This document shows, piece by piece, positions 325 to 48,708 of a stretch of DNA of 64,000 bases. The DNA lies in sequence record KF055347, one strand, 5' to 3'. Each line of letters starts with the position of its first letter. Positions within the stretch are counted from its first letter, which is position 1. The position numbers and the translations under genes are program-made. The notes beneath the pieces are model-generated. The model was given only the letters and a program-made list of their open reading frames with translations. It was not told where the DNA came from and did not search any database. Origin of the DNA: Escherichia phage JH2.

Positions 325-888
325 TTATCCTAAAAAGTCCTTTAAATTGCGTTCTGTGAGGTTTTCCGTGATTTTATCCAGTAGGTCACAAAACACGGAA
401 CTATCACCGCTATTCTGTACAATTTTTGCAATACTCAACAAATCATCGTCAACATATCCCAAATTGCGGTTTTTCGTATCAGGTACAAAGAAAGGTGCAT
501 ACATCGCACTAAATTTCGTTGAGTGGATACTAACAATCCAATTTTTATCAAAGTATCCGGTAAAGCTGGCAATTTCGCTCATGTTGTCACAAGAATAATC
601 GTCCTCTAGTTCTTCCTCTGGGATATCCATTTCAATAACAATTACGTCCTGCGTTTCCATTTGGAAAGCTGCTGTGATAAGCCCCGACTCTAAGGCGCTT
701 TGAATGCAGCGTTCACGGATATAAGAGACTTCCTCATCTTCCAGACATTCCGTTTTGATAACCTTATTCATTGGATAAACATAGAAACAATCGTCCATGT
801 AGGAACAGTTCCAGATACCTTCAGGCTTATCGCCACCATTCAGCAGGTTTACAAAGTTTTTGAGTGTAGTTCCGTGATAGCATTTCAT
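325..888 (-). CDS. hypothetical early protein
   Basis: 187-aa ORF; start preceded on the coding strand by conserved CCTTAAACTAGGAGATTCAAAA leader. Confidence 0.5.
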   Translation of the reverse strand: MKCYHGTTLKNFVNLLNGGDKPEGIWNCSYMDDCFYVYPMNKVIKTECLEDEEVSYIRERCIQSALESGLITAAFQMETQDVIVIEMDIPEEELEDDYSCDNMSEIASFTGYFDKNWIVSIHSTKFSAMYAPFFVPDTKNRNLGYVDDDLLSIAKIVQNSGDSSVFCDLLDKITENLTERNLKDFLG

Positions 889-980
889 TTTTGAATCTCC
901 TAGTTTAAGGACTTGATTTAGTGGTAAAGCTCTTTATCTGGGGCTTACTTTATCGAACTATAAGCCCCTTGTAAAGTACT
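889..980 (-). promoter_or_regulatory. early intergenic cassette type A: GGGGCTTA..TAAGCCCC hairpin plus conserved AGGAGA leader
   Basis: near-identical ~90-bp sequence recurs between consecutive small genes; stem GGGGCTTA (940-947) pairs with TAAGCCCC (961-968). Confidence 0.55.
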
Positions 981-1184
981 TTATCGGTTATTTTTGATAA
1001 CTTTTAAAACTGCGCGGTATCCTAAGCAATAAGAATCACCGAAGAGCGACCGACCCATGAATGAATCCTCTTTGATATCCTTTGCAGTGACAGTCTTTTC
1101 TACGCCGTGAAAAAGAACTATATCGCCAACTTTGATATCTTTGATATGAGTAGTTTCAATGTTTAAACCGTTGATAATAGCCAT
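981..1184 (-). CDS. hypothetical early protein
   Basis: 67-aa ORF flanked by cassettes. Confidence 0.4.
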   Translation of the reverse strand: MAIINGLNIETTHIKDIKVGDIVLFHGVEKTVTAKDIKEDSFMGRSLFGDSYCLGYRAVLKVIKNNR

Positions 1185-1284
1185 TCTTGAATCTCCTAGT
1201 TTAAGGACTTTACTTAGTGGGGAGGTTATCCCTCCCGTTGATTAGTAATTTACTTGTTTTAAAAATCAATGTCAACAAAATTTT
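1185..1284 (-). promoter_or_regulatory. early intergenic cassette type B: GGGAGG..CCTCCC hairpin plus conserved leader
   Basis: GGGAGG (1220-1225) pairs with CCTCCC (1231-1236); same unit recurs at 2048-2134. Confidence 0.5.
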
Positions 1285-1689
1285 TTAGAGTTCTGCATAA
1301 ATTGCATCGCAGATACCACGAAAATCATGATTTGTCAAATTACGTTGTAACCAAGTGGCGAAAAAGTCAGCGATTGCAAAGTTAGCGTCATACTCGACAG
1401 ATAGCCATACTTTAACAGCAAATCTAAGCATTTTCAAATCCAGCTCTCTATTCATTACCTTAGATTTGCCTAACATGTCGGTCATTTCATATTGCGCACC
1501 GTCTAGCGTGATACCGGCTGCAACGTCAGCCAATGAGTTTTTTACGCTTTCAACGTCTAAGATAACACTTTGAATCTTCCCGATAATGTTTTGCAGTGTT
1601 TCGTCTGGCGCTGATGACGTGATAACATTAATCCGGTTGACGGTCAAACGTGCTTTTAAGATTAATAATTCGCGGTTATTAATAGCCAT
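1285..1689 (-). CDS. hypothetical early protein
   Basis: 134-aa ORF flanked by cassettes. Confidence 0.5.
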   Translation of the reverse strand: MAINNRELLILKARLTVNRINVITSSAPDETLQNIIGKIQSVILDVESVKNSLADVAAGITLDGAQYEMTDMLGKSKVMNRELDLKMLRFAVKVWLSVEYDANFAIADFFATWLQRNLTNHDFRGICDAIYAEL

Positions 1690-1774
1690 TTTTGAATCTC
1701 CAATTTAGGATTTAGTGGTAAAGCTCTTTATCTGGGGCTTACTTTATCGAACTATAAGCCCCTTGTAAAGTACT
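1690..1774 (-). promoter_or_regulatory. early intergenic cassette type A
   Basis: repeat of ctctttatctggggcttactttatcgaactataagccccttgtaaagtactttat. Confidence 0.55.
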
Positions 1775-2047
1775 TTATACTAAATGCAGCTTTTTACCTT
1801 TTACTATGATGTAACTTGATGCGCTATTGCTGCAAACATCCTGATAAATTCTGCGCAAACGGCCTTCATAGTATACTTTCCAACTAGTTGGAATCTTTTT
1901 ACCATATCCCGTAGCAGTTTTTTGGAATCCAGCAAGTTGCCAATCCAAAATATGTTGTTCAGCTTGTAAATCCTCGAAGTGCATTACACCGTTCACATAG
2001 TGGCGCAAAGTTACATTTAGAGTACGACCGTTGTTAGTAGTATACAT
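1775..2047 (-). CDS. hypothetical early protein
   Basis: 90-aa ORF flanked by cassettes. Confidence 0.45.
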   Translation of the reverse strand: MYTTNNGRTLNVTLRHYVNGVMHFEDLQAEQHILDWQLAGFQKTATGYGKKIPTSWKVYYEGRLRRIYQDVCSNSASSYIIVKGKKLHLV

Positions 2048-2134
2048 TTTCTAATCTCCTAGTTTAAGGACTTTACTTAGTGGGGAGGTCATCCCTCCCG
2101 TTGATTAGTAATTTACTTGTTTTAAAAACCAAAA
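2048..2134 (-). promoter_or_regulatory. early intergenic cassette type B
   Basis: second copy of the GGGAGG..CCTCCC hairpin unit. Confidence 0.5.
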
Positions 2135-2467
2135 TCAAGAGAAATTTTTTCGTTTGCTCAATTCTTGAACAATTACAGCGTAGTAGTCTTTTAAGTCACT
2201 GATATTTAAAGCATTTATCAGTGAATTATAATCATCGACTAACTGAAAATCATCTTTGAAGATATCACTTATCTGATAGGTTTTCGCTTTGAATCTGAAG
2301 CTCATTTCTAGCCGCTTTATTTGCTCATCACTTAAACGCTCCAGAAAGCTCATTACAAGGCTATTATTGACCTGTTGCGTGATTGCCTTACTTGCCAGAT
2401 TGTAGGCGCTGTAAGCCTTATAAAGTGCTATAATGGCGATGATTGCAGTGATGCCCATCATTAGCAT
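2135..2467 (-). CDS. hypothetical membrane-associated early protein
   Basis: 110-aa ORF; N-terminus MLMMGITAIIAIIALY is hydrophobic. Confidence 0.5.
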   Translation of the reverse strand: MLMMGITAIIAIIALYKAYSAYNLASKAITQQVNNSLVMSFLERLSDEQIKRLEMSFRFKAKTYQISDIFKDDFQLVDDYNSLINALNISDLKDYYAVIVQELSKRKNFS

Positions 2468-2757
2468 GGTGTTACCTCTCTGCGTGATACTTTACCATTT
2501 ACAGTTATCTCATAAGCTTCTAATAAATCACTTTCAGATTTAACAGGACTTTTAAAAGTATCATCATAAACATTAATTTGCAATACAGGCTTTTTATACT
2601 CCCTGCAACTATTCCATAAGCAAATTACTACGCGACGGCCTTTTATTTTGCCGTGTAACCATTCCATAACATCATGACTATTTCTTGATGTCTCGATAAA
2701 ATCAATTTTATTGAGTAATTTGCTTAGATTTTCACGCACTTGATTTGATAATTTCAT
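2461..2757 (-). CDS. hypothetical early protein
   Basis: 98-aa ORF; 7-nt overlap with the downstream gene. Confidence 0.45.
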   Translation of the reverse strand: MKLSNQVRENLSKLLNKIDFIETSRNSHDVMEWLHGKIKGRRVVICLWNSCREYKKPVLQINVYDDTFKSPVKSESDLLEAYEITVNGKVSRREVTPC

Positions 2758-2849
2758 TTTTGAATCTCCTAGTTTAAGGGCTTTATTTGATAAATCTCTT
2801 TATCTGGGGCTATCCTACCAGCTTGTTAGCCCCGTGTAAAGAAATCTAT
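2758..2849 (-). promoter_or_regulatory. early intergenic cassette, type A variant
   Basis: same leader; hairpin variant ggggctatcctaccagcttgttagcccc. Confidence 0.45.
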
Positions 2850-3362
2850 TTAGTTCTTAAAGATATTCATCACTGAATCTTTCAACGATTCCAAACGTTC
2901 TAATACTTCAGATTCTGCGTCTGCGTTGTTCACCTCTTCTTTTAGTCTATCCTCTAAATCATCGCCGTCACGATAGCGCCAATCGAAAGCGTAACCAAGA
3001 TAAAAACTTTCTAAAACCGTGCTACCGTTTGCATCCACAACTTTCGCGGCAAGGCTATACTCTGAAGCCTCTAAATCTCTTTCTAGTTCTTTCTGTAAGC
3101 TTGTGTAAGCCTCTTTCGATGGATTCTCACGGCCTTGTTTTGCATAGTCACTTGAAAGCTGCTTAAGGCTGTAATGCAAAGGGATTGCATATTTAAACTC
3201 ATTACGCTGACAGTTGGTGTTTTTAATAGTTACACCGCCTTGATGGTCATCTGTAAACTCCCAATTATCCATATTATGGCTTGCTTCGTAGCAATTAACA
3301 GCCTCATAAATGATGGAAAATTTTTCTTTTACAACTTCAAAGGTAGCGTCTACAGTTTTCAT
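2850..3362 (-). CDS. hypothetical early protein
   Basis: 170-aa ORF. Confidence 0.5.
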   Translation of the reverse strand: MKTVDATFEVVKEKFSIIYEAVNCYEASHNMDNWEFTDDHQGGVTIKNTNCQRNEFKYAIPLHYSLKQLSSDYAKQGRENPSKEAYTSLQKELERDLEASEYSLAAKVVDANGSTVLESFYLGYAFDWRYRDGDDLEDRLKEEVNNADAESEVLERLESLKDSVMNIFKN

Positions 3363-3457
3363 TTTTGAATCTCCTAGTTTAAGGACTTGATTTAGTGGTA
3401 AAGCTCTTTATCTGGGGCTTAAGATATCAACTTTTAAGCCCCTTGTAAAGTACTTTA
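3363..3457 (-). promoter_or_regulatory. early intergenic cassette type A, GGGGCTTAA..TTAAGCCCC variant
   Basis: ggggcttaagatatcaacttttaagcccc followed by ttgtaaagtactttat. Confidence 0.55.
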
Positions 3458-3730
3458 TCAGATTAAATTGCCAGTTAATGATAAGTGCATTTTATAGCCT
3501 TTTTTGGTAAAAACGTTCACTTTACCGAGTGATTTTACACCTTTAAAAATGTTGTTTGAACTGCGTTTTAAGGTTAGTTGCTTATCAGCTTTCACGCCCC
3601 ACCTTACAGCAGTTTGTTTTCCGTTGTCAACCACTTTTCCGCATAACTTTTTAGCCATAACGCGAGCGTCATCACGAGTCTTTGCAGTAATTACAACGTT
3701 TTTGATAATAGCCATTTTTAAGTTCTCCAA
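3458..3730 (-). CDS. hypothetical early protein
   Basis: 90-aa ORF, basic. Confidence 0.45.
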   Translation of the reverse strand: MENLKMAIIKNVVITAKTRDDARVMAKKLCGKVVDNGKQTAVRWGVKADKQLTLKRSSNNIFKGVKSLGKVNVFTKKGYKMHLSLTGNLI

Positions 3731-3804
3731 TTTAGGATTTAGTGGTAAAGCTCTTTATCTGGGGCTTACTTTATCGAACTATAAGCCCCTTGTAAAGTAC
3801 TTTA
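3731..3804 (-). promoter_or_regulatory. early intergenic cassette type A
   Basis: repeat copy. Confidence 0.55.
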
Positions 3805-4185
3805 TTAGTTAATTTTGAAAATTGTCACATAACCATCGCTCCCGATGATTTGTGATACCCCAGCTTTCTCTACTTGATAGCCCATATTTTCAAGATGGTA
3901 AACAGCATCATCGTAACCATATGCGCCACCCTGATAACGTCGCTTATCACATTTTATCAGGTTTTTACCGCGTCCAGCAAGTGCATTCAGTACGGCTTTT
4001 TCACTTGATAGTGTACCATCTATCATGGTTGCCGTGTAATGGTTGATTTTATTCCCATTAATATCATACTTAAAATTGAATGCGTGAACAATAATCAATT
4101 TACCGTTAAATTTTTCATCAAGTGACTTCTCCAGTGCGTTGCGGAAGTTGTCTTTATTGATGAATTTCGGTGCACGATAAGCCAT
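3805..4185 (-). CDS. hypothetical early protein
   Basis: 126-aa ORF. Confidence 0.5.
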   Translation of the reverse strand: MAYRAPKFINKDNFRNALEKSLDEKFNGKLIIVHAFNFKYDINGNKINHYTATMIDGTLSSEKAVLNALAGRGKNLIKCDKRRYQGGAYGYDDAVYHLENMGYQVEKAGVSQIIGSDGYVTIFKIN

Positions 4186-12891: not shown

Positions 12892-13208
12892 GACTCACCT
12901 CTCATATTTTTGTAAAGTATAAAGCTTCTGTCATGGACGATACTTGTAGATACTGCAAAGTTACTTTCAAGCATCTGTTTGTTTGGATTGTAGAAGCTTT
13001 CTTTAAACTCGTCAAGTGCAAATTGGTGATTGTCTGGAAGACCTTTTACACACACCTTTATTGTAATTGCTGCTGCAACCTTGCCAGTCAGTTCTTCTTT
13101 AGCTGCTACTAAAATTTTGTTAAGGAACTTATGACCGTTTTCAGGTTTCTTGATGTTCTCCCAGCGTTCTTCTAAGACAATATTGATATTCATTTCTTTG
13201 ATTTTCAT
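12873..13208 (-). CDS. hypothetical protein
   Basis: 111-aa ORF. Confidence 0.5.
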   Translation of the reverse strand: MKIKEMNINIVLEERWENIKKPENGHKFLNKILVAAKEELTGKVAAAITIKVCVKGLPDNHQFALDEFKESFYNPNKQMLESNFAVSTSIVHDRSFILYKNMRGESCKHIG

Positions 13209-13225
13209 AATCTTCTCCAGAAATT

Positions 13226-13246
13226 AAAAAGGCTCCCGTAGGAGCC
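13226..13246 (-). terminator. rho-independent terminator-like hairpin after the NAMPT-like gene
   Basis: GGCTCC-CGTA-GGAGCC (13231-13246) followed by a T-run on the minus strand. Confidence 0.5.
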
Positions 13247-13261
13247 TCTTATCATATACTT

Positions 13262-15043
13262 TTAAAGCTGCTTGTCAATATTATTTCGAATATCACCAAG
13301 AGTTGTGTAACCAAACTGCTCAGAGTCACTAAAGACTAAGCGTAAAGTACAAGCTGGATGTTCAAGCGCATCTGCAAAGCTCTGGAAACCATAGCCATCT
13401 ACAGCTTTCAGCTTATCACCATCCCACATAGGCGCTACACCACCAAAAGCAGACTTCTTAACACCACTATCTGTTTTAGGGTCTTTTGCAAGCATAATCT
13501 CTTTGCCACCAATACTTGCAAGAGTTGCTTTGACAGCAAATGCAAAGGTGTCACGAGTCATATACTGGTAAGTGTAAGAGCCTACACCAAATACTACGTT
13601 AGAGCTTGCAAAACCCATTTCATACAAACGCTTCAGGATTTCGTTTGCACGTTCCAACGTGATAGAGTCACCATAGATAAGTCCAATGTGCTCATCCAGT
13701 ACCTTAAAACCTTTAGAGTTGATAGTCCCTCCAAAGATGTTATACAGGGTCTTAATAGCCCCATCAATCTCTGCTACAGGACGTGTTACAACGTTTGCAG
13801 AACCAACCATATAAGCATTTTTCAACAGCACTGTATCAGCAACTTCAAAGTCTTCTCTGTCAACAACCATTTCGTAGCCTTCTGACAGTAGCCATCCAGC
13901 AATACCATAGTTGATATCCTCAAGCTTCATGTTCAGAACAGCATTCAGCATTGTGTCGCTGGCTTCCAGCTTGCTTAGGTGTTCGTAATAAGCCTTTTTA
14001 GCACACTCTAAGTGGATTGCTTTATAACCTGTGACAATATGTACAGGGTCGCCAGAGTCAGGACGAATTACCAGTTTGCCATCACGTTCCATAATCTCTT
14101 TACGAAGTGCTGGTAAGATTTCTGATACAGTTCTCCAGAAATTATAAGTGTCTGAAACAACACTTGCAATACCTGTTGGGTAAGTTTCTGTTAAGAAACG
14201 ACGGAAGGTTTGTAACTCACCTTTAAAGCGTCTTTCTTCTTCAATCAACTCATTACCACCTTCCCAAGCAATGTTTGCACACATTACAGAGTGTTCGGTG
14301 GCTGGTACAGAGCTACCAATATCAGAGATTGGGTAGGACTGTCCATAGATGCGTTTAGCTGTATACACAGCAGGGAAGCTATCAGTTCCTTTAAAGCTGG
14401 TTAAGTGGCCTACAGCGTTAAATGCGTCATCGGTAAAGCCGGACATACCACGCATAGCAAAATCATGGCACTGATAAGGCAAATGCAAGTCGTTGTCACA
14501 AGTAAGGTCAGACCACTTCTTACAGATACGTTTGTAGTGCAATGCAATAGTTGCAATGGTACAAGCCTTCCAAATCTCAGCAGAGAAAGCATCTTCCAGA
14601 TACCCAGCTACCCAATGGAAACCTGAAACAGTGTTCTGGAAGACAATCATTGGTACACGCATAGGGACAACTGTGCCTTCTTCTACAGCGTATACTTCAA
14701 CTGGTAGATAACCTAAATCGTGGAGTGCTTCCCAATGTTCTCGACCAATAGCATCTTTACCCAGAACACCATTCATGACTTCTAAGATTTCGTCAATTGC
14801 TTCTTTTTTGTCACGTTCAAAGAAGGTAGCGTTCCAGTGGTCTATCAAGTAATCTTTAACAAAGCGTTGAATACCAAAAGCCACTACACCGTCAATTGCT
14901 AAAGGGCTGTTAAACCATTTATCGCTACGTGGTGTCAGGTTAAACATCAAGTACTCTGTTGCACTAGGGTACTGGTAAACATGACCAGATTTGTAAGCAT
15001 CTGCATTAAGACCTGCTGGTACTGCGTAAAGTGACTTACTCAT
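13262..15043 (-). CDS. nicotinamide phosphoribosyltransferase-family protein (NadV-like; possible Namat-type enzyme)
   Basis: 593 aa; family-level resemblance to NAMPT/NadV; encoded directly next to a PRPP-synthetase-family gene. Confidence 0.7.
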   Translation of the reverse strand: MSKSLYAVPAGLNADAYKSGHVYQYPSATEYLMFNLTPRSDKWFNSPLAIDGVVAFGIQRFVKDYLIDHWNATFFERDKKEAIDEILEVMNGVLGKDAIGREHWEALHDLGYLPVEVYAVEEGTVVPMRVPMIVFQNTVSGFHWVAGYLEDAFSAEIWKACTIATIALHYKRICKKWSDLTCDNDLHLPYQCHDFAMRGMSGFTDDAFNAVGHLTSFKGTDSFPAVYTAKRIYGQSYPISDIGSSVPATEHSVMCANIAWEGGNELIEEERRFKGELQTFRRFLTETYPTGIASVVSDTYNFWRTVSEILPALRKEIMERDGKLVIRPDSGDPVHIVTGYKAIHLECAKKAYYEHLSKLEASDTMLNAVLNMKLEDINYGIAGWLLSEGYEMVVDREDFEVADTVLLKNAYMVGSANVVTRPVAEIDGAIKTLYNIFGGTINSKGFKVLDEHIGLIYGDSITLERANEILKRLYEMGFASSNVVFGVGSYTYQYMTRDTFAFAVKATLASIGGKEIMLAKDPKTDSGVKKSAFGGVAPMWDGDKLKAVDGYGFQSFADALEHPACTLRLVFSDSEQFGYTTLGDIRNNIDKQL

Positions 15044-15089
15044 ATTTTATATCTCTCTCAAAATGGGGCTTTTAAGCCCCTATAAAGTT

Positions 15090-15986
15090 TTAATCAAGGT
15101 TTGCTACAGTAACTTGGGCATAATGTGTTAAGCCACGGTCTTTAGCTTCCCCTAAAGAGTTTGTAGTGTAGATGTGGTCAATACCATTGTCAAGTAAGTT
15201 TTCAACACCTTTAGAGAAGATACCATGTGTTACATAGAGTTCCACACGTTTTGCACCTGCTTCACGAAGATGTTTAGCTGCTTCTATGAAGGTTCGACCA
15301 CCATCACAGATATCATCCAGAATCATGACGGTTTTATCTGTCAAATCAACATCATCAAGGATTCGCATACCAGTAATTTCACCAGTCTTAAGGTTACGTA
15401 CTTTAGACATTGTGATGTATGGCTTATCCACCTCTTTAGCAGTCTCTTCAGTCTTCTTAGCTGCACCTGCATCTGGGGCTACCAAGAAATCAATGCGTGG
15501 GTCACTTGCAAAGTGTGCTGCCACATCTTTTTGCTTCATGCTCTGAAAGCACTTAAATAAGTTTTCTGCAACATTACTGTGAGGGTCAAGAGCACATACT
15601 GCATCAAAGCCCATTGCATTAACGAGGTTGGCAAAAGCTTTCAGTGCTGCTGAATCACCTTTGAACATATGGCGGTCATATCGAGCATTCGGTAAGAACC
15701 CGAAAACAACGGTTTTCATCGCTGATTTATATGGAACAAGACTGTCAATGGCATCCTTAGCCAAAGCTAATGCAAACAGTGTATCTTTATCATATCCCTG
15801 CACAGTAAGTATAACATTGTCAATCTTACCAGCATTACGCTCAGTAAACTTAACAAAATCTTCAGAGAAGTTTCCACCAATTTCTCCAGATGGGAATTGG
15901 ATGATATTAAATTTTTCTGTGTGGAAGAATTTCTCTTGTGCGGTGACAACGGCTTCAATAATAGTTTTCATAGTTTTCTCTCTCAA
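15090..15986 (-). CDS. ribose-phosphate pyrophosphokinase-family protein (Prs-like; possible Adps-type enzyme)
   Basis: 298 aa; FPSGEIGG resembles the Prs FPDGE motif; VMILDDICDGGRTF is a PRPP-binding loop. Confidence 0.7.
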   Translation of the reverse strand: MREKTMKTIIEAVVTAQEKFFHTEKFNIIQFPSGEIGGNFSEDFVKFTERNAGKIDNVILTVQGYDKDTLFALALAKDAIDSLVPYKSAMKTVVFGFLPNARYDRHMFKGDSAALKAFANLVNAMGFDAVCALDPHSNVAENLFKCFQSMKQKDVAAHFASDPRIDFLVAPDAGAAKKTEETAKEVDKPYITMSKVRNLKTGEITGMRILDDVDLTDKTVMILDDICDGGRTFIEAAKHLREAGAKRVELYVTHGIFSKGVENLLDNGIDHIYTTNSLGEAKDRGLTHYAQVTVANLD

Positions 15987-16520
15987 TCAAAAGTTACGTT
16001 TGTTACTGCCATTGTAAGTTGCCTTATAAACTGTCTCGAACTTCAACAGGAGAGATATTGCCAAATCTGTATAGTTGTTGTCAAGCACATCTGGCATATT
16101 ATTTTTGATATATTTCTCTTGCTCTTCATAGGTCATCTTAGGGATGCTTAGAAGACTATCTCCTTGCTTCTGATTATCAGCTTTAGTCTGAATAAACCAG
16201 TTTGCGCAGTGATGTTCACCACCTTTTGTAACAGGTTTGTGGTGACCTAATGTGAAGGACTGGTTACCTGTGTATCTACAAAGCTTATTGAGCACTGCAA
16301 TGGTGTTCTTCACAACAAAACATTCATACAGATTATCTATGGTGTAATGTGGGTAATAGCGGAATAGTGCTCTTTCACGAGTACTATCACGATTCCAGAG
16401 AATCATGTGATTAGAGTTAGAAGGGTCGTATTGGTGGGAGTCAATGAACTCTTGACGTTCTTCAAAGCTGAGTCTTAGAACTGACATTGCAACCGAACGT
16501 TTCAGATTTGACAGGTACAT
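15987..16520 (-). CDS. hypothetical protein, weak HNH-like signature
   Basis: 177 aa; GHHKPVTKGGEHHCANW is loosely HNH-like but lacks the usual Cys ligands. Confidence 0.4.
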   Translation of the reverse strand: MYLSNLKRSVAMSVLRLSFEERQEFIDSHQYDPSNSNHMILWNRDSTRERALFRYYPHYTIDNLYECFVVKNTIAVLNKLCRYTGNQSFTLGHHKPVTKGGEHHCANWFIQTKADNQKQGDSLLSIPKMTYEEQEKYIKNNMPDVLDNNYTDLAISLLLKFETVYKATYNGSNKRNF

Positions 16521-18331: not shown

Positions 18332-18543
18332 AATTTCACCCTAGTTGGTAATGCACTGAATGCTATAGCTAACCCTAAAAATGGTTTGAAGCATGACCAT
18401 AAATCCATTTGTCCATGATATGATAAACTCCATTGTGGGTCTGAAAAACCCCATACCATAACACTAACCCCAAAGAAGAAGATTGCTATGTGTAGTATGG
18501 GTGCTAATACCCTTAAGAGTGTTGTCATTGTTAATTCCACCAT
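18328..18543 (-). CDS. hypothetical small membrane protein
   Basis: 71 aa, two hydrophobic segments. Confidence 0.4.
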   Translation of the reverse strand: MVELTMTTLLRVLAPILHIAIFFFGVSVMVWGFSDPQWSLSYHGQMDLWSCFKPFLGLAIAFSALPTRVKL

Positions 18544-18917
18544 ATAGTTTTACCATTATCACATGTGTAAAGATACTCTACAGAAGTTTGTGGGACAAGT
18601 ATAGTGGTGTTCCCACTAAGTACACTCACAAAATAAGTAACTTCACGATGTTGATGAGTTTTTACACAATTGTTTGCCTCCATCCATATCACAGTTTTGT
18701 ATGAATAGAACACCGCCAAGACACAAAGTGTAATAACCCCAACTATCATGGCAAACTCAGGCAAAAAATCTGACTGTATGATGTCCCTAAATCTCATTAT
18801 TCCAAGAATAAATAAGATTATCAGACATACAATCCCACAAACTGCTACATAAAGCCACAAGTCCATGATGCAACTCCAAATAAAAAGGTGATGTAAGCCT
18901 ATCAAGACCCACACCAC
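18531..18917 (-). CDS. hypothetical membrane protein
   Basis: 128 aa with several predicted TM segments. Confidence 0.45.
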   Translation of the reverse strand: MVWVLIGLHHLFIWSCIMDLWLYVAVCGIVCLIILFILGIMRFRDIIQSDFLPEFAMIVGVITLCVLAVFYSYKTVIWMEANNCVKTHQHREVTYFVSVLSGNTTILVPQTSVEYLYTCDNGKTIWWN

Positions 18918-18928
18918 CTTGTCAAGTT

Positions 18929-19495
18929 TTACATAAACTTATTTTTCTTACAATTGTCAAAATGGTAACGAGTCATGTTACCAGCACCACCAGTCATGCC
19001 ACAATGAGGGCAAGTTTTCTTTTCCTTTGGCTTTTTCCCAGCTTCTGACATCTTCTTCCTTGTTTCTATAGACCTTTTACATCCTTTTGATTTTGTATTA
19101 CCTATTTGGGCTTCTCCTAACCGTCTTCGATGTTCTTCAGTGAAAACCCTACCTTTATTCACAATAGATAAAGCTTTCGAGTTTAAAGCCCTTATCTTTT
19201 CATAGTCTCTGGATGATATTTTCCTGTCTAGTCCATCATGAGCTAACCTGTGCCATGCAAACCATAACTTATGGTTGTCTGGATACATCTTAACCAGCAA
19301 TTTATGAGCTATATAATGCTCTCTAGGTGTAAGTAAAGCAATATTGTCTCCACTAATTTTATCACCACCTAAGCATACTGGTATAATATGGTGTCTTTCA
19401 TAACCTTTGCCTTGACATTTGTAGTATGTGAGAGGCACACCCCTTTCAGAATGTGCCTTCTTAATAATTGCATTATAGATTAGTTCGTAATTCAT
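18929..19495 (-). CDS. free-standing HNH homing endonuclease-like protein
   Basis: 188 aa; ERHHIIPVCLGGDKISGDNIALLTPREHYIAH is an HNH motif; lies between nrdD exon 2 and nrdG. Confidence 0.65.
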   Translation of the reverse strand: MNYELIYNAIIKKAHSERGVPLTYYKCQGKGYERHHIIPVCLGGDKISGDNIALLTPREHYIAHKLLVKMYPDNHKLWFAWHRLAHDGLDRKISSRDYEKIRALNSKALSIVNKGRVFTEEHRRRLGEAQIGNTKSKGCKRSIETRKKMSEAGKKPKEKKTCPHCGMTGGAGNMTRYHFDNCKKNKFM

Positions 19496-19502
19496 TTAGA
19501 TG

Positions 19503-20450
19503 CTACATAGAAACCCTATCCTTAATTTCTGCCATCTTAGCGTCATTCATTCGAGACTGACCTTTAATTTTTGTGAATGACAAGTACCCGCACACCCTGT
19601 TAATCACAGAGATATCATGTGAATGGCAAACCTCACATTCTTCAACATCAGCCTTTGGTCTGTTACCGCAATGCTCACAGATTGCTAAGTCAAAGTTAAG
19701 TCCCTGATAAAAACCTTTCAACATCCCTCTTGTAATACAACTTTTAAGTGCTGGTAAGTTTTCTGGGTTAGCTACCCTCACATACTGGATTCTGCCACCT
19801 CTACAGATATGGAAGAATGGCTCTTCTAAGTCCTGCTTCTCAAATGGTGAGATGTTTGCTGCAACATTCATATGGAAACTGTTTGTAAAGTATTCCTTGT
19901 CAGAGACACCTTTAATAACGCCAAACATATCTCTGAACTGTTTTAACTGAGTTCCACAAAGTGATTCTGCTGGAGTGCCATATACCGCATACAAGAAGCC
20001 ATCTTCGTTCTTAAACTCTTCAGTTTTCATGTTAATGTATGCCAGAACATCGTATGCAAAACTATAGCTTCCAACTTCATGAAGTCGTTTACCTTCAGCA
20101 AGAACAGACAACTCATCAAGAGCAGTAACCCCAAAAGAGGCTGTGAAAGACTTCACAATATCCCAGCCAACCTTGTCAGTAGGTTTCTTAGTCCCTTTGT
20201 ACAGACCACCTTGTGTGAATGCAAGAGGGTTAGAACTTGCTGGCATATTAGCAATCATCTCGTAGCGTTTCTTGTGGAAGCTGCGAATCATCTCTAGGTA
20301 CTTATCAAGCTCCTTCCAGAAATCTAAACCATTCTCTTTAGAATATTGGTAAATCATTGGTAAGTTCAAAGATACAGCACCAATGTTAGCACGACCTACA
20401 TAAAACTCTTCACCATCTTCGTTATGATATGGTGATAAGAACGCTCTACA
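19503..20450 (-). CDS. nrdD: anaerobic ribonucleoside-triphosphate reductase NrdD, exon 2
   Basis: reading frame is open upstream of the annotated Met to CRAFLSP at 20450, continuing T4 NrdD ..PMG/CRSFLS; contains TNSFH and C-terminal Cys cluster. Confidence 0.75.
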   Translation of the reverse strand, partial: CRAFLSPYHNEDGEEFYVGRANIGAVSLNLPMIYQYSKENGLDFWKELDKYLEMIRSFHKKRYEMIANMPASSNPLAFTQGGLYKGTKKPTDKVGWDIVKSFTASFGVTALDELSVLAEGKRLHEVGSYSFAYDVLAYINMKTEEFKNEDGFLYAVYGTPAESLCGTQLKQFRDMFGVIKGVSDKEYFTNSFHMNVAANISPFEKQDLEEPFFHICRGGRIQYVRVANPENLPALKSCITRGMLKGFYQGLNFDLAICEHCGNRPKADVEECEVCHSHDISVINRVCGYLSFTKIKGQSRMNDAKMAEIKDRVSM

Positions 20451-35328: not shown

Positions 35329-35585
35329 GTAAGCCTCTTTTAAGTAACTATTAAGTTTTAATCTTTTATCTTAACGTATTCTATACGTTATACTTTAAAG
35401 CTTTTTAAAAGCTATTAAATAATCTTTTAAGAGTTTTAAAGTATCTGTATAGTTAAACTGTTAAGTAACCTTTTAAGTAAAAACCCACTTCGCAAAGATT
35501 AACACCTTGTCAAGTACATTGTCAACTTGCTTTTTATAATTTTTTGCAGTAATGTATGTGGTTAATGATTTTAGAGGGAGTAAAA
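35329..35585. promoter_or_regulatory. divergent AT-rich intergenic control region
   Basis: 257 bp between divergent gene blocks; repeated CTTTTAAG motifs, duplicated TTGTCAA, TATAAT hexamer; GAGGGAG RBS before the polymerase start. Confidence 0.45.
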
Positions 35586-37728
35586 ATGGAAAACGTAGAT
35601 TTTAAAAACTTACATTTAGTTGGCGATACAGAAACTGATGGTTTACTCCTTGAGTTCACTAAAGTGCACGTAATGGCTTTCGCAGACTATAAATCTGACG
35701 ATGAAGAGCCACCTGTATGGGTCTTTACAGATGAGCCTATCCTCGGCCACAAGTATACCAAGTACATTAAAGGTGGTTTGCGTGAAGGTGTCGAGTTTGC
35801 GTTAAAGGCAAAACGGCTTTGCATCCATAATGGTCTGGGGTATGACTGGTGGGTTTTCAATCACATTGCACCTGATTTGTGGAACTTTGATAATCCAAAG
35901 TGTAAACCGTGGAGTAATTTCTTTCAGGATTCTCTTATCCAGTCTCGTGTTCAGTGGATGGATAGACCAACTCCAAAGGGTTATAAAGGTGCTCATGGTT
36001 TGGCTGCATGGGGTGCTCGTGTTGGTGTACGTAAACCAGAGATTGAACATTGGGGTGTGTGGAATGCAGAAATCTTCACTCGTGTTGTAGAAGATATCCG
36101 TATTAACGCCAAAACTAAACGTGCACTGGATAATGAATATCTCAAGCTGAAGAAGTGTGGCGTAGATACTTATGAAACCTACATGCGAGCTAAAGAAACA
36201 TCTTTCTGGATGAGTCAACAAGCTATCAATGGTTGGAAAGCTGATAAAGAACTTATGGAGTTCCATGTAAAGGAACTTGACAAGTTGACTAATGAGCTTG
36301 CTTCAGAAGTTGAACCACATCTTCCTCCAACTATTAAGACCAAAGGTAAAGTCACTGGAGAAGAGTTTGCAAAAGCTTGGAATGAGTATGTTGAAGCATT
36401 CGGTCATGCAGATGGACTGAAGAGAATTACCAAGTACCCTAAGACAAAGTATCGTCAGCAGGTACGTAACGGTGAGATGCAGACATATGAAATTAAGCCA
36501 TTTGGTAAGCCAACTACAAAGATTTTTAACATTGAAAAGCGGAATTGCTATACACCAACCAACTCTGTAACTGGTGAAGAGTACAAGGAAGGTTTTGTAG
36601 CAATGAAGGATGCTCGTGCAATTTGCAATGAGTTGAATGCAAAGATTGGTAAGAAATGCAAAGACTGGAAGCCAGTAAAAACAGTTAAAACTGTGAAGTA
36701 CTATAACAGTCATGTTGTGAACCACTTTGAGCTTGAGTCAAGTCGCTACACAGGTTTGATTGATGCACCATATACACCAATTGAGTTTGAAGTTTCTCGA
36801 ATGACTCAGGTGGCTGTTGTGAAGGACTACTTGAAATCAGTTGGTTGGATTCCTGATGACTGGAACTATAAGAAAGACTCTGATGGTCGTCCTGTTAAGG
36901 TTTGTCGTTTCAAAGACAACAAAAAGATGATTACCAAACATCCTAAATGGGATGAGATGGTTGAACGGTGCGGTTTGAGTTATGTTGAACATGAAGGTGT
37001 ACAGTACATTGAGCATAACTGGTCTGTTAAGAAGTACACAGATTTGCTTGAACCTTGCTTAATCCGTACTTCACCAAAACTTACTGAATCATCTTATGAT
37101 ACGATTGAAGGTGAGCTTGGGCAGAAGATTGCAAAATACTATACCTTGATGCACAGACGCAGAACTATTGAGAACTCAAAGGATGATGAAAAAGGTTGGT
37201 TAAACCAGATTCGTCCTGATGGTCGCCTTAGTGCTGGTGCAATGGTGTTTGGTACTTCAACTGGACGTATGACACAATATGGTATTGTAAACGTACCGTC
37301 TGGCGCTGCTGTCTATGGAGCACCCATGAGGGAAGTTTGGACTTGTGAAGAGGGTACTAATATTGTTTCAGCCGACATGAATAGCGCCCAACTTGTGCTG
37401 CTGTGTAACTTTATGGGTGATAAAGATTTCACTAAAGCGGTGACAGAGGGTAAAGAAGAGGTTGAGTTTGTCAAACAAGAGGATGGTAGATACTATTGCA
37501 AACATTTTAACCAGTATCTAAACCCAGCTATTGACAAGTATTTACATTATGATTCTGAAAATGACTTATACGTGGTGTACTCAGGGACTGATGCACATAC
37601 TTTAAACAGTATCTACTTCAGCCTTAATAAAGAGGAAGACATCTTGACATGTCGAGCTACTCAGGATGCAAATCTTCTTCAAGAAATTAGTAAAGGCCGT
37701 AAGAAAGCCAAAAATGGCATTTATGCGT
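35586..37728 (+). CDS. DNA polymerase family A, exon 1 (3-prime-5-prime exonuclease plus polymerase through first half of motif B)
   Basis: Exo I motif LVGDTETDGL; ends ..RKKAKNGIY inside motif B; start moved to ATG 35586 with RBS. Confidence 0.75.
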
Positions 37729-38530
37729 CAGTGGCGCATGTAAAACGTTGTGAATTGCTGGAAGCCTAAGTCTGTAAAGATATGGTAATCAGCAGCGAAG
37801 TCTCTGTTAGGACTCCTAAAACAAAGGAGAGAGACAATGGCAGGTTACGAAGAGAGATTATGCACTGAGTGTGGTACGGAGTTTAAACCATATCAATACA
37901 ATCAGAAACGGTGCAGAAGTTGTGTATTAAAGTTTGACAGAAGGGCAGAACACAGGGTTCTTACTAAGAAATGCCCTAGTTGTGAGAAGGTGTTCATGCC
38001 GAGAACAGCAAGGCAAGTTTATTGTTCGTCACATTGCGGTGAGAAAGGTAGAGTTAAGAATTACTACCTAAGAACATATGGATTGGAAAGAGAAGAGGTT
38101 GAGTCTCTACTCCGTGACTGTGATTACAAATGTCAAATTTGTGGCGGCGAAGGTTTTATCATGAATGGTTCACGACACAAGGCTAAACTTGTTGTTGACC
38201 ATGACCATAAAACCGGAAAGGTAAGAGGTATGTTATGCCACAATTGCAACAGAGCTTTGGGGTTGCTTGCAGATAGTGTTGATAACATGCAAAGAGCGAT
38301 TGACTATCTAAGCAAATGATATAACTATAGAGATTCCTAACAGAGAAACGTTCAGAGACTATCGAAAAGCATACTTAACGTATGAACTGAGTAGAGTAGG
38401 GTGGTAAGCTAATGACCATCCCCAAGTGCAACGGTAGCATCACTGCTACGTGATATAGTCCGACACTCCGTAGAAATGCGGAGAAGTTCATAAGAGAACT
38501 GGTACACCTTGCGAGTGTATTGACCAGATG
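37729..38530 (+). mobile_element. group I intron in the DNA polymerase gene carrying an EndoVII-type HNH ORF
   Basis: polymerase motif B split (..KNGIY / ..LFGAGDEKFAK); exon 1 ends in U at 37728; intron ends in G at 38530; conserved GATATAGTCC at 38452-38461; boundaries inferred. Confidence 0.65.
37837..38319 (+). CDS. intron-encoded HNH endonuclease, endonuclease VII-like
   Basis: 160 aa; VVDHDHKTGKVRGMLCHNCNRALG typical of EndoVII-type HNH; several CxxC pairs; good RBS. Confidence 0.65.
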   Translation: MAGYEERLCTECGTEFKPYQYNQKRCRSCVLKFDRRAEHRVLTKKCPSCEKVFMPRTARQVYCSSHCGEKGRVKNYYLRTYGLEREEVESLLRDCDYKCQICGGEGFIMNGSRHKAKLVVDHDHKTGKVRGMLCHNCNRALGLLADSVDNMQRAIDYLSK

Positions 38531-39087
38531 TATTGTTCGGGGCTGGCGATGAGAAATTTGCTAAGACGATTAAAGCATCTACAACTGAGGAAGGTGCTTT
38601 AACTAAGCAAACATACTTTGTACGTCTCCCTAAAATTAAGAAGTTGATAGATAATTTAGAAGCAGACTTCAAAGCCACTAAGAAGGCTCTTGAAGAGGTA
38701 TTTGGTAAGACTGCCGCAATCTCTAAAGGGGGGTTTGTAAAGGTTGCTGGAGCTTGGTTGTGGTGTAAATCTCCACATAAGTTATTGAATTATTTGCTTA
38801 TGGGTTCGGAAAGTCAGGTTCAGAATGAAGCCATCAACCTCGCTTGTAGAAGAACTTGTGAAGAGGGTCTTACAAAGTTGAATGGTCGAAAACCAGCTAT
38901 TGGCGCTAGATTGCTTTTAGCATATCACGATGAGAATAGTTGGGAGTGTCCAGAAGACATGACGCAGGATGTTAAAGCAGTAATTGACTGGATGTATGGT
39001 CAAGCATCAAGAAATTTAGGGCTTAAGGAGGAAACTCTCGTAACTGGCACTGGTAAAGTTGGTAAAAATTGGCTTGAGGTACACTGA
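38531..39087 (+). CDS. DNA polymerase family A, exon 2 (second half of motif B through C-terminus)
   Basis: begins LFGAGDEKFAK aligning with T7 gp5 ..YGAGDEKIG; no ATG start, consistent with an exon. Confidence 0.7.
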
Positions 39088-48662: not shown

Positions 48663-48682
48663 TATAAATTTTCCTCTTAAAA

Positions 48683-48698
48683 GGGGCTATAAAGCCCC
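48683..48698 (-). terminator. hairpin between the two fibre genes
   Basis: GGGGCT-ATAA-AGCCCC followed by a T-run on the minus strand; preceded by TTTACA. Confidence 0.4.
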
Positions 48699-48708
48699 TG
48701 TAAAGAAA

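What the first reader, a model, noticed from the sequence alone, without database searches (positions are those of the whole stretch)
13262..15986. Adjacent NAMPT-like and PRPP-synthetase-like genes: candidate NAD+ reconstitution anti-defence module
A 593-aa nicotinamide phosphoribosyltransferase-family protein is encoded directly next to a 298-aa ribose-phosphate pyrophosphokinase-family protein (FPSGE and VMILDDICDGGRTF motifs). A virulent phage has little need for de novo NAD salvage. As I recall, exactly this pairing has been described as a two-enzyme route that rebuilds NAD+ from ADP-ribose and nicotinamide to counter NAD-depleting immunity such as Thoeris or DSR. The NAMPT-like protein is about 100 aa longer than typical NadV. 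If the hint about an undescribed system refers to this window, this is my leading candidate.
Basis: partly seen in the sequence, partly recalled or inferred. Interest (0 to 1): 0.8.

Follow-up and report, generated by a model that had tools for sequence, protein, structure and literature searches.

The report
Known phage NAD-rebuilding gene pair NARP1
These two adjacent genes are the published phage pathway NARP1 (Adps + Namat), which rebuilds NAD+ from the fragments left by NAD-destroying bacterial immune systems. The copy here is 95-98% identical in protein to that of phage Bas63, where the pathway was discovered, so it is real but not new.

Summary
Two same-strand (-) ORFs, 13262..15043 (593 aa, Nampt family) and 15090..15986 (Prs family), lie 46 nt apart in a Felixounavirus genome. 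The second more likely starts at the ATG at 15971, giving 293 aa.

The proteins are 98% (581/593, no gaps) and 95% (279/293) identical to Bas63_0080 and Bas63_0079. That is the gene pair whose deletion led Osterman et al. to define NARP1: Adps converts ADPR + ATP to ADPR-PP, and Namat converts ADPR-PP + nicotinamide to NAD+.

The published Namat-defining features are all present:
- the catalytic core residues;
- the clamp-helix motif GSYTYQYMTRD;
- the clamp-loop K42-W43.

Adps keeps the catalytic Lys and is closer to the biochemically characterised SPbetaL1 Adps than to E. coli Prs. No Macro-domain (Adpp) or RyR-domain (RyDEP) accessory gene is present, so this is the plain two-gene form.

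The one undescribed detail is the reason for the extra ~100 aa. An 88-aa, confidently folded mini-domain (residues 340-427) is found, among phage records, only in FelixO1-like (Ounavirinae-type) phages. It is under purifying selection, has no sequence or structural relatives, and sits at a loop where other Namat lineages carry unrelated inserts. Its function is unknown.

Interest is low.

The parts
15090..15971 (-). adps: ADP-ribose pyrophosphate synthetase (Prs-family), 293 aa from the ATG. The mechanical ORF extends to a TTG at 15986 (298 aa).
   Evidence: ORF. Pfam PF00156/PF14572, TIGR01251 and phrog_619. 95% identical (279/293) to Bas63_0079. 34% identical to the biochemically characterised SPbetaL1 Adps (E 5e-28) against 27% to E. 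coli Prs (E 4e-16). Catalytic Lys K190 aligns with SPbetaL1 K162 and E. coli K194.
15044..15089 (-). 46-nt adps-namat spacer. It holds the hairpin GGGGCT-TAAA-AGCCCC (15065-15080) followed by AUUUU, then the GAGAGAGA-type ribosome-binding region of namat.
   Evidence: Sequence. RNA fold dG -11.5 kcal/mol, z -2.3. The equivalent site is annotated as a rho-independent terminator in phage AYO145A. It was not called by the consensus terminator scan here. In FelixO1 this spacer is occupied by an HNH endonuclease gene.
13262..15043 (-). namat: nicotinamide ADP-ribose transferase (Nampt-family), 593 aa.
   Evidence: ORF. PF04095, PF18127, NF006629 and phrog_448. 98% identical (581/593, no gaps) to Bas63_0080. 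Best PDB matches are the SPbetaL1 Namat structures 9W5W/9W5X (E 1e-127). All core residues are conserved: D15, Y17, F195, R198, D221, A248, H251, R327, D329, G458-D459, G488-S489, T496-R497-D498.
13550..13582 (-). Selectivity-clamp helix (SCH) signature GSYTYQYMTRD (Namat residues 488-498), with adenine-stacking aromatics Y490 and Y494.
   Evidence: Translation and motif search. It fits the published consensus GS-X-phi-X-phi-X-phi-TRD (PMC12774641). Contrast: SPbetaL1 Namat GSFTYQYNTRD, Xcc Nampt GGALLQKVDRD, 9KE8 GAQTYQRNTRD.
14911..14925 (-). Selectivity-clamp loop (SCL) residues S40-D41-K42-W43-F44. Lys is at the third position and W43 is the stacking residue.
   Evidence: Alignment to SPbetaL1 R40 and residues confirmed. 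PMC12774641 states that when Lys or Tyr occupies the third SCL position, the fourth residue stacks on adenine, 'e.g. Bas63 Namat'. This segment is identical in Bas63.
13763..14026 (-). 88-aa insert in Namat (residues 340-427). It is predicted to be a compact alpha/beta mini-domain and, among phage records, matched only FelixO1-like (Ounavirinae-type) phages. Function unknown.
13227..13250 (-). Intrinsic terminator-like hairpin plus T-run immediately after namat. A near-consensus sigma-70-like promoter (13278..13251, 11/12) for the downstream genes overlaps it.
   Evidence: Terminator and promoter scan. RNA fold dG -17.2 kcal/mol, z -3.5. A promoter is annotated at the equivalent site in AYO145A. 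These are consensus matches only.
15987..16520 (-). Context only: a 177-aa ORF directly upstream (Bas63_0077 homologue, phrog_3500, weak HNH-like signal). It is probably co-transcribed from about 16590 and is not a NARP1 component.
   Evidence: phrog_3500 E 2.6e-92, phrog_2214 HNH E 1.5e-4. No Macro or RyR Pfam domain. A terminator at 16560-16538 and a promoter-like site at 16589-16561 lie upstream.

Best explanation
This is the two-gene NAD+ reconstitution pathway 1 (NARP1) of a FelixO1-like (Felixounavirus) phage, an orthologue of Bas63 genes 79-80.

Proposed mechanism. A host SIR2-, TIR- or SEFIR-type defence cleaves NAD+ into ADP-ribose and nicotinamide. Adps (15090-15971, -) then transfers pyrophosphate from ATP to the free ribose of ADPR, giving ADPR-PP. 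Namat (13262-15043, -) replaces that pyrophosphate with nicotinamide and regenerates NAD+ directly, without needing host NMN adenylyltransferase activity. The phage can therefore keep replicating despite NAD+-depleting immunity.

Shown elsewhere for the near-identical Bas63 genes (in vivo): the anti-SIR2-HerA phenotype, NAD+ restoration, ADPR-PP accumulation, and independence of host pncC/nadR.

Shown elsewhere for the SPbetaL1 homologues (in vitro): both reactions and the Namat structure.

Inferred here: that the window's proteins do the same. This rests on 95-98% identity, conserved catalytic residues and the conserved clamp motifs.
For: Identity and context:
- The window is a Felixounavirus: 250 phage records match the module, the best at 96% nt.
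- Namat is 581/593 identical and Adps 279/293 identical to Bas63_0080 and Bas63_0079.
- The module is collinear with Bas63 at 94% nt.

Published evidence (Osterman et al.):
- Deleting genes 79-80 of Bas63 gave ~20-fold fewer plaques on SIR2-HerA cells and abolished NAD+ restoration.
- ADPR-PP appeared only with wild-type phage plus the defence system.
- The SPbetaL1 enzymes performed ADPR + ATP -> ADPR-PP and ADPR-PP + Nam -> NAD+.
- NARP1 countered type I Thoeris, DSR1, DSR2 and SEFIR.

Namat signature (PMC12774641):
- The core residues, the SCH motif GSYTYQYMTRD and the SCL K42-W43 are all present.

Adps:
- The catalytic Lys is conserved.
- It shares the flexible-loop pattern K-x-R-N-x-x-T-G-E-I with SPbetaL1 Adps, where E. 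coli Prs has KRRPRANVSQV.
- All cellular Prs equivalog models score far below their cut-offs, for example 111 against 296 bits.

Selection: both genes are under strong purifying selection, dN/dS 0.03-0.08 against Bas63.
Against: - No enzyme from a Felixounavirus has been assayed in vitro. The Bas63 protein 'did not purify well', so substrate specificity for this lineage rests on in vivo metabolomics plus homology at 34-45% identity to the SPbetaL1 enzymes.
- The window's Namat carries an 88-aa insert that the crystallised enzyme lacks.
- Namat retains some PRPP -> NMN activity in vitro, so a minor salvage contribution is not excluded.
- The window phage itself was never tested. It differs from Bas63 by 12 and 14 residues and by loss of two small flanking ORFs.
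- Curated annotation models still call these proteins nicotinate phosphoribosyltransferase and ribose-phosphate diphosphokinase.
Confidence: 0.93

Rival explanations
1. Canonical salvage, as GenBank records annotate it. The Prs-like enzyme makes PRPP from ribose-5-phosphate, the Nampt-like enzyme makes NMN from PRPP and nicotinamide, and host NadR/PncC finish NAD+ synthesis.
For: Pfam and NCBIfam names. Annotations in nearly all 250 related phage records read 'nicotinamide phosphoribosyltransferase' and 'ribose-phosphate pyrophosphokinase'. Namat can make NMN from PRPP in vitro when ADPR-PP is absent.
Against: - For the 95-98% identical Bas63 genes, protection was independent of host pncC and nadR, and ADPR-PP rather than a PRPP-derived product accumulated.
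- SPbetaL1 Adps gave no product in the control assay for Prs-type activity, and Namat made only NAD+ when given both donors.
- The window protein carries the adenine-clamp motif that true Nampts lack.
- Adps fails every cellular Prs equivalog cut-off.
Confidence: 0.03
2. The pair is mainly a metabolic booster that keeps NAD+ high for phage enzymes during any infection. It would be a housekeeping auxiliary metabolic module rather than a counter-defence.
For: The genes sit in the nucleotide-metabolism and early region, between nrdD/nrdG and rIIA/rIIB. The closest cellular relatives lie in a conserved Klebsiella chromosomal neighbourhood next to an NrtR-type NAD regulator, which suggests a homeostatic ancestry.
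Against: ADPR-PP was detected only when the defence system was present. The reported defect of the Bas63 deletion mutant was specific to SIR2-HerA-expressing cells. NARP1 needs ADPR and nicotinamide, which become abundant only after NAD+ cleavage.
Confidence: 0.03
3. It is an extended or variant pathway rather than plain NARP1: NARP1-AP (with an ADPR-1''-phosphate phosphatase), a RyDEP-coupled form, or NARP2.
For: Such variants exist in other phages. Namat here has an extra 88-aa domain of unknown role.
Against: - The spacer between the two genes is 46 nt, with no third gene.
- The flanking ORFs have no Macro (PF01661/PF14519) or RyR (PF02026) domain.
- The insert has no Pfam, PDB or BFVD relative.
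- Presence of Adps and the clamp motif excludes NARP2.
Confidence: 0.01

Closest known systems
NARP1 of Escherichia phage JohannRWettstein (Bas63), genes bas63_0079/0080 (Osterman et al., 10.1101/2024.02.11.579819)
   Same: Same genus, gene order, strand arrangement and 46-nt-class spacer. Adps is 95% and Namat 98% identical, including the 88-aa insert and both clamp elements.
   Different: There are 14 and 12 amino-acid substitutions. The window lacks the small flanking ORFs bas63_0078 and bas63_0081. The window phage itself has not been tested.
NARP1 of Bacillus phage SPbetaL1 (in vitro biochemistry; Namat structures 9W5X/9W5W, PMC12774641)
   Same: Same two-gene operon order. The catalytic Lys of Adps, all Namat core residues, the SCH motif and an SCL stacking residue are conserved.
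   Different: - Only 34% (Adps) and 42-49% (Namat) identity.
- SPbetaL1 Namat is 491 aa and lacks the 88-aa insert and the 15-aa insert after the catalytic His.
- SCL uses R40 directly where the window uses K42-W43.
- The SPbetaL1 genes overlap instead of being separated by a hairpin spacer.
NARP1-AP (Adps-Adpp-Namat, Vibrio phage Gary) and RyDEP-containing NARP1 (phage DyoEdafos)
   Same: Same Adps and Namat core.
   Different: The window has no Macro-domain phosphatase or RyR-domain glycosidase in or next to the operon. By inference it should not overcome aRES (ADPR-1P-forming) defence or degrade cADPR signals.
NARP2 (Nampt + bifunctional Nmnat, Vibrio phage KVP40) and cellular Prs + NadV/Nampt salvage
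   Same: Same protein superfamilies, and the Nampt-like catalytic chemistry of attaching nicotinamide to an activated ribose.
   Different: NARP2 and cellular salvage use PRPP and produce NMN. Their Nampts lack the aromatic clamp (Xcc Nampt GGALLQKVDRD), and no Adps-clade gene is adjacent.
NrtR-linked chromosomal 'prs-nadV' operons of gamma-proteobacteria (Rodionov et al. 2008, PMC2330246) and bacterial NARP1 (Paenibacillus foliorum, PMC12774641)
   Same: Klebsiella chromosomes carry an adjacent Adps-like (46% id, E 2e-51) and Namat-like (47% id, SCH GSFTYQYNTRD) pair. These are the closest non-phage relatives found here.
   Different: They are chromosomal and sit next to a divergent Nudix/WHD NrtR-type regulator. 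They have no 88-aa insert (496 aa). Their function in Enterobacteria is untested.

Membership tests
NARP1 (pathway) | Adps-clade and Namat-clade genes in close proximity, typically in one operon | tested here: met
   Both genes are on the minus strand, 46 nt apart, with a terminator-like hairpin only after namat.
NARP1 (pathway) | Orthology to an experimentally validated NARP1 operon | tested here: met
   98% and 95% aa identity to Bas63_0080 and Bas63_0079, full length, collinear.
NARP1 (pathway) | Counteracts NAD+-depleting defences and restores NAD+ from ADPR + nicotinamide + ATP | not testable with these tools
   Requires phage genetics and biochemistry. Shown for Bas63 (in vivo) and SPbetaL1 (in vitro).
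Namat | Nampt-like catalytic core: nicotinamide-stacking Phe/Tyr, Asp, catalytic His, and ribose-binding Arg/Asp | tested here: met
   Y17, F195, R198, D221, A248, H251, R327 and D329 align to SPbetaL1 Y15, F189, R192, D215, A242, the catalytic His, R306 and D308.
Namat | [quoted passage not shown] | tested here: met
   GSYTYQYMTRD at residues 488-498. phi3 is Met rather than the usual Asn/Val. True Nampts differ.
Namat | SCL (beta1-beta2 loop) supplying an adenine-stacking residue: Arg at position 3, or position 4 when position 3 is Lys/Tyr | tested here: met
   S40-D41-K42-W43, with K42 aligned to SPbetaL1 R40.
Namat | Preference for ADPR-PP over PRPP | not testable with these tools
   Biochemical property. 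Shown only for SPbetaL1 Namat.
Adps | Prs-family fold with the catalytic Lys (SPbetaL1 K162, B. subtilis Prs K197) | tested here: met
   TIGR01251 137 bits against a cut-off of 113. K190 aligns with SPbetaL1 K162 and E. coli K194.
Adps | Belongs to the phage Adps clade, separate from cellular Prs | tested here: met
   No tree was built, so these are proxies:
- 95% identity to Bas63 Adps, a query sequence of the published clade.
- Higher similarity to SPbetaL1 Adps (34%, E 5e-28) than to E. coli Prs (27%, E 4e-16).
- All Prs equivalog models score far below their cut-offs.
- phrog_619 E 4e-99.
Adps | Namat homologue within ten genes (97% of the clade) | tested here: met
   Namat is the adjacent gene.
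Adps | Pyrophosphorylates ADPR, not ribose-5-phosphate | not testable with these tools
   Shown for SPbetaL1 Adps in vitro, and inferred for Bas63 from ADPR-PP in infected cells.
NARP1-AP | Macro-domain ADPR-1''-phosphate phosphatase (Adpp) within or next to the operon | tested here: not met
   No third gene lies between adps and namat. Pfam scans of the two flanking ORFs on each relevant side found no Macro domain.
RyDEP-coupled NARP1 | RyR/R12-domain (PF02026) protein in the operon | tested here: not met
   No PF02026 hit in the neighbouring ORFs or in the Namat insert.
NARP2 | Nampt-clade enzyme without an Adps partner, paired with Nmnat | tested here: not met
   Adps is adjacent and the Namat clamp motif is present. 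The whole window was not scanned for Nmnat.
Cellular ribose-phosphate diphosphokinase (Prs) | Passes a curated Prs equivalog model | tested here: not met
   Best equivalog is NF002095 at 111 bits against a cut-off of 296. Others score 50-100 bits against cut-offs of 297-536.

The most novel reading that the evidence does not exclude
The 88-aa mini-domain inserted in Namat (residues 340-427; window 13763-14026) may be a functional add-on rather than a passive loop expansion. It matched only FelixO1-like phages among phage records. Possible roles include docking Adps to channel the hydrolysis-prone ADPR-PP, regulating Namat, or shielding it from a host counter-measure.

It is confidently folded and under purifying selection within the genus. 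It has no sequence or structural relatives and is absent from the only crystallised Namat. It sits at a loop where other Namat lineages have independently acquired unrelated inserts.
Probability: 0.15. Interest if true: 0.4.

Novelty: already known. Interest (0 to 1): 0.12.

Why it matters
As a discovery it does not matter much. NARP1 was published in 2024, was found by deleting essentially these same genes in the sister phage Bas63, has a solved Namat structure, and is catalogued in 859 phage genomes.

Its practical value is in annotation. Public records for about 250 FelixO1-like phages, many of them phage-therapy or biocontrol candidates against E. coli, Salmonella and Shigella, still label these genes 'ribose-phosphate pyrophosphokinase' and 'nicotinamide/nicotinate phosphoribosyltransferase'. 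NCBI's equivalog model still passes Namat as a nicotinate phosphoribosyltransferase. Recognising them as Adps and Namat predicts that these phages resist SIR2-, TIR- and SEFIR-based NAD+-depleting defences. By inference it also predicts that they do not resist aRES.

Two small open points came out of the analysis: the uncharacterised insert domain of Ounavirinae-type Namat, and the possible link between phage NARP1 and ADPR-induced, NrtR-regulated chromosomal 'prs-nadV' operons.

Tried and rejected

2. I tested for accessory NARP1 genes (Adpp, RyDEP) in the flanks. None were found.

3. I searched Rfam for a structured RNA in the module region. Nothing credible turned up.

4. A PADLOC scan gave only weak PRTase-domain similarity of Adps to the PsyrT and ShosT toxins (E about 4e-6). 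I rejected this as shared fold, not a defence system.

5. I considered whether the insert is recently acquired foreign DNA. Its GC (0.417) equals the rest of the gene (0.423), and it is present across divergent FelixO1-like phages, so it is old.

6. My first guess at the Bas63 accession (MZ501111) was wrong. I found MZ501086 by bisection.

I could not measure the distance from the insert to the active site or the dimer interface.
Full report
**Observation.** The window contains, on the minus strand, a 593-aa ORF at 13262..15043 and, 46 nt upstream of it, a 298-aa ORF at 15090..15986.

Profile searches place the first protein in the Nampt/NAPRTase family: PF04095 E 6.8e-35, PF18127, NCBIfam NF006629 E 8e-140, phrog_448 E 3e-201. 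They place the second in the Prs family: PF00156/PF14572, TIGR01251 E 5.5e-40, phrog_619 E 4e-99.

The second gene most likely starts at the ATG at 15971 (293 aa). That start is used for the orthologues in Bas63, AYO145A and FelixO1, and it is preceded by a GAGAGAGA stretch like the one before namat.

**Where the window comes from.** Megablast of the module finds 250 phage records, nearly all FelixO1-like phages of Escherichia, Salmonella, Shigella and Citrobacter. The best hits are at 96% nt. The window is collinear with Escherichia phage JohannRWettstein (Bas63, MZ501086) over almost its whole length at about 94% nt.

**What it is.** That paper discovered the pathway by deleting 'genes 79-80' of Bas63. 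I located Bas63 and compared the proteins directly:
- The window's Nampt-like protein is 581/593 identical to Bas63_0080, without gaps.
- The Prs-like protein is 279/293 identical to Bas63_0079.

The finding is therefore a near-identical orthologue of the founding example of NARP1.

**Mechanism and what is shown versus inferred.**

Shown for Bas63 in vivo:
- The deletion mutant makes about 20-fold fewer plaques on SIR2-HerA cells and no longer restores NAD+.
- A new metabolite, ADPR-pyrophosphate (m/z 720.010), appears only with wild-type phage plus the defence system.
- Protection does not need host pncC or nadR.

Shown in vitro, but with SPbetaL1 homologues because the Bas63 protein 'did not purify well':
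- Adps gave no product in the control assay for Prs-type activity, and converts ADPR + ATP to ADPR-PP.
- Namat converts ADPR-PP + nicotinamide to NAD+, and prefers ADPR-PP when PRPP is also offered.

NARP1 also cancels type I Thoeris, DSR1, DSR2 and SEFIR, but not type II Thoeris. That the window's proteins do the same is inferred from the sequence evidence below.

- **Core.** Aligning the window protein to the crystallised SPbetaL1 Namat (9W5X/9W5W, the best PDB hits, E about 1e-127) shows every core residue conserved: D15, Y17, F195, R198, D221, A248, catalytic H251, R327, D329, G458-D459, G488-S489, T496-R497-D498.
- **Clamp helix.** The motif reads GSYTYQYMTRD. SPbetaL1 Namat has GSFTYQYNTRD. 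The genuine Nampt of Xanthomonas has GGALLQKVDRD, and PDB 9KE8 has GAQTYQRNTRD.
- **Clamp loop.** The loop has K42-W43, the arrangement the paper describes for Bas63 Namat.

**Adps membership.** The published definition is phylogenetic plus contextual: a phage clade, 97% of whose members lie next to Namat. The evidence here:
- The protein is 95% identical to one of the clade's query sequences.
- It is more similar to SPbetaL1 Adps (34%, E 5e-28) than to E. coli Prs (27%, E 4e-16).
- It keeps the catalytic Lys (K190 = SPbetaL1 K162 = E. coli K194).
- It shares a flexible-loop pattern K-x-R-N-x-x-T-G-E-I with SPbetaL1 Adps, where Prs has KRRPRANVSQV.
- It fails every curated cellular Prs equivalog cut-off.

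**Which NARP1 flavour.** Later work describes operons extended by a Macro-domain ADPR-1''-phosphate phosphatase (NARP1-AP, countering aRES) or by a RyR-domain cADPR glycosidase (RyDEP). Here the two genes are separated only by a 46-nt spacer. The flanking ORFs are a 177-aa Bas63_0077 homologue with a weak HNH signal, a 111-aa phrog_4262 protein and a 58-aa membrane protein, and none has such a domain. This is the plain two-gene form.

**Regulatory anatomy (consensus-level evidence only).**
- A terminator-like hairpin and a promoter-like site lie upstream of the 177-aa ORF, at 16560-16538 and 16589-16561.
- A strong terminator-like hairpin follows namat at 13250-13227 (dG -17.2, z -3.5).
- A smaller hairpin sits in the adps-namat spacer at 15065-15080 (dG -11.5, z -2.3). 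It is annotated as a terminator in AYO145A and could attenuate read-through.
- In FelixO1 itself that spacer is occupied by an HNH homing-endonuclease gene.

**The extra ~100 aa.** 'Insertion' does not occur in PMC12774641.

- **Location.** Relative to SPbetaL1 Namat, the window protein has an 88-aa segment (residues 340-427) in place of about 13 residues. It lies between the RPDSGDP strand/helix and the G-x-I-E-x-L-W-x-IFGG helix. There is also a ~15-aa insert after the catalytic His.
- **Fold.** AlphaFold2 with a 30-sequence alignment gives a confident full-length model (pLDDT 92.6). The insert forms a compact alpha/beta unit with pLDDT 92-97 across residues 341-430. It also folds on its own (pLDDT 86.8, pTM 0.76).
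- **Distribution.** tblastn finds it only in 252 FelixO1-like phage records. Among homologues of 582-610 aa it persists down to about 45% overall identity.
- **Selection.** Within the genus it is under purifying selection as strong as the core (dN/dS 0.02-0.10 against 0.03-0.045). Over longer distances it diverges about twice as fast, for example 45% against 84% and 25% against 58%.
- **Insertion site.** Other Namat lineages carry unrelated inserts of 20-75 aa at the same loop, so the site tolerates insertions.

The most economical reading is a lineage-specific peripheral decoration. A functional role is not excluded (probability about 0.15). I could not measure its position relative to the active site because model coordinates were not exposed.

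**Rivals.**
- **Canonical Prs + Nampt salvage.** This is contradicted by the Bas63 genetics and metabolomics, the SPbetaL1 enzymology and the clamp motif.
- **Pure housekeeping.** This is contradicted by the defence-dependence of ADPR-PP formation and of the mutant phenotype.
- **Extended or NARP2-type variants.** These fail their defining features.

**Verdict.** Novelty is 'already known' and interest is low (0.12). The residual value lies in correcting annotation for a large group of therapeutically relevant phages, plus two small leads: the insert domain and the NrtR link described below.

**Side observation.** The nearest cellular relatives of both proteins are adjacent chromosomal genes in Klebsiella and related Enterobacteria. 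The Adps-like protein is 46% identical (E 2e-51) and the Namat-like protein 47% identical, with clamp motif GSFTYQYNTRD. They are transcribed divergently from a Nudix + WHD_NrtR regulator.

Rodionov et al. 2008 (PMC2330246) described NrtR-controlled 'prs-nadV' operons in gamma-proteobacteria. They showed that ADP-ribose is the most effective anti-repressor, and called the co-regulation of a second prs paralogue with nadV 'quite unexpected' and unexplained.

If these are Adps/Namat pairs, ADPR would be both inducer and substrate. No paper in the searchable library mentions NrtR together with NARP1, and the Namat structure paper does not mention NrtR. This is an inference from homology and context only.

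Noticed in passing
L011:3217-6491 (Klebsiella-type chromosomal contig); compared with window 13262-15971: The closest non-phage relatives of the window's Adps and Namat are adjacent chromosomal genes: a 284-aa protein 46% identical to Adps and a 496-aa protein 47% identical to Namat, with clamp motif GSFTYQYNTRD. They lie next to a divergent NrtR-type (Nudix+WHD) regulator. Rodionov 2008 showed that NrtR releases 'prs-nadV' operators in response to ADP-ribose and found the prs co-regulation unexplained. ADPR may therefore be both inducer and substrate of a chromosomal NARP1. No paper in the library links NrtR and NARP1.
   Followed up: partly
window 35556-39087 (+): The DNA polymerase gene is split into a 737-aa N-part (35556..37769) and a 184-aa C-part (38533..39087). 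The 804-bp segment between them (37727-38530) is absent from Bas63, where the polymerase is one ORF. The segment encodes a 160-aa Endo VII/HNH-type protein (37837..38319) and has a sub-threshold Rfam group I intron match at 37756-37846 (24.6 bits, gathering 50, E 7e-4). It is probably an intron carrying a homing endonuclease.
   Followed up: partly
window 15044-15089; L009:2451-2942 (FelixO1): In FelixO1 and several relatives, an HNH homing-endonuclease gene (163 aa) sits between adps and namat. The window and Bas63 instead have a 46-nt spacer with a small hairpin. The spacer is thus a recurrent homing-endonuclease insertion site that splits the NARP1 operon.
   Followed up: partly
window 18500-19503: This 1-kb segment is absent from Bas63. 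It carries a 188-aa HNH-like ORF (18929..19495, 'YERHHIIP' motif) and a 128-aa membrane-like ORF (18531..18917), and looks like another mobile endonuclease cassette.
   Followed up: no
window 15987-16014 and 13206-13209 (junctions): Relative to Bas63, the window lacks two small ORFs flanking NARP1: bas63_0078 (92 aa, upstream of adps) and bas63_0081 (114 aa, downstream of namat). It also lacks bas63_0072. The upstream 177-aa ORF consequently abuts adps directly.
   Followed up: partly
window 46992-49107: The tail-fibre region is only 76-78% identical to Bas63, with unmatched stretches, while the rest of the window is about 94% identical. This is the usual host-range hypervariable locus.
   Followed up: no
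window 880-3820: A family of ~100-bp repeats (79-95% similar to one another and to Bas63 64.8-68.2 kb) recurs between small early ORFs. They are presumably repeated promoter/terminator intergenic units.
   Followed up: no
window 15972-15990 and 15044-15062 (-): Both adps and namat are preceded by the same TGAGAGAGA element 8-13 nt upstream of the ATG. It may be a shared, non-canonical ribosome-binding or regulatory sequence.
   Followed up: no
proteins P0092, P0110, P0099, P0090 (Namat homologues from metagenomes): Other Namat lineages carry unrelated inserts at the same loop as the FelixO1-type insert, for example a ~75-aa Tyr-rich segment 'YNRYDKQYYYIDG' in P0092 and P0110. This points to independent domain acquisitions at one hot spot.
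   Followed up: partly
window 1-64000: No tRNA genes were found in the window (ARAGORN). The tRNA cluster annotated in Bas63 lies at 81.9-86.9 kb of its genome, outside the Bas63 span this window matches (about 5.4-69.0 kb).
   Followed up: yes
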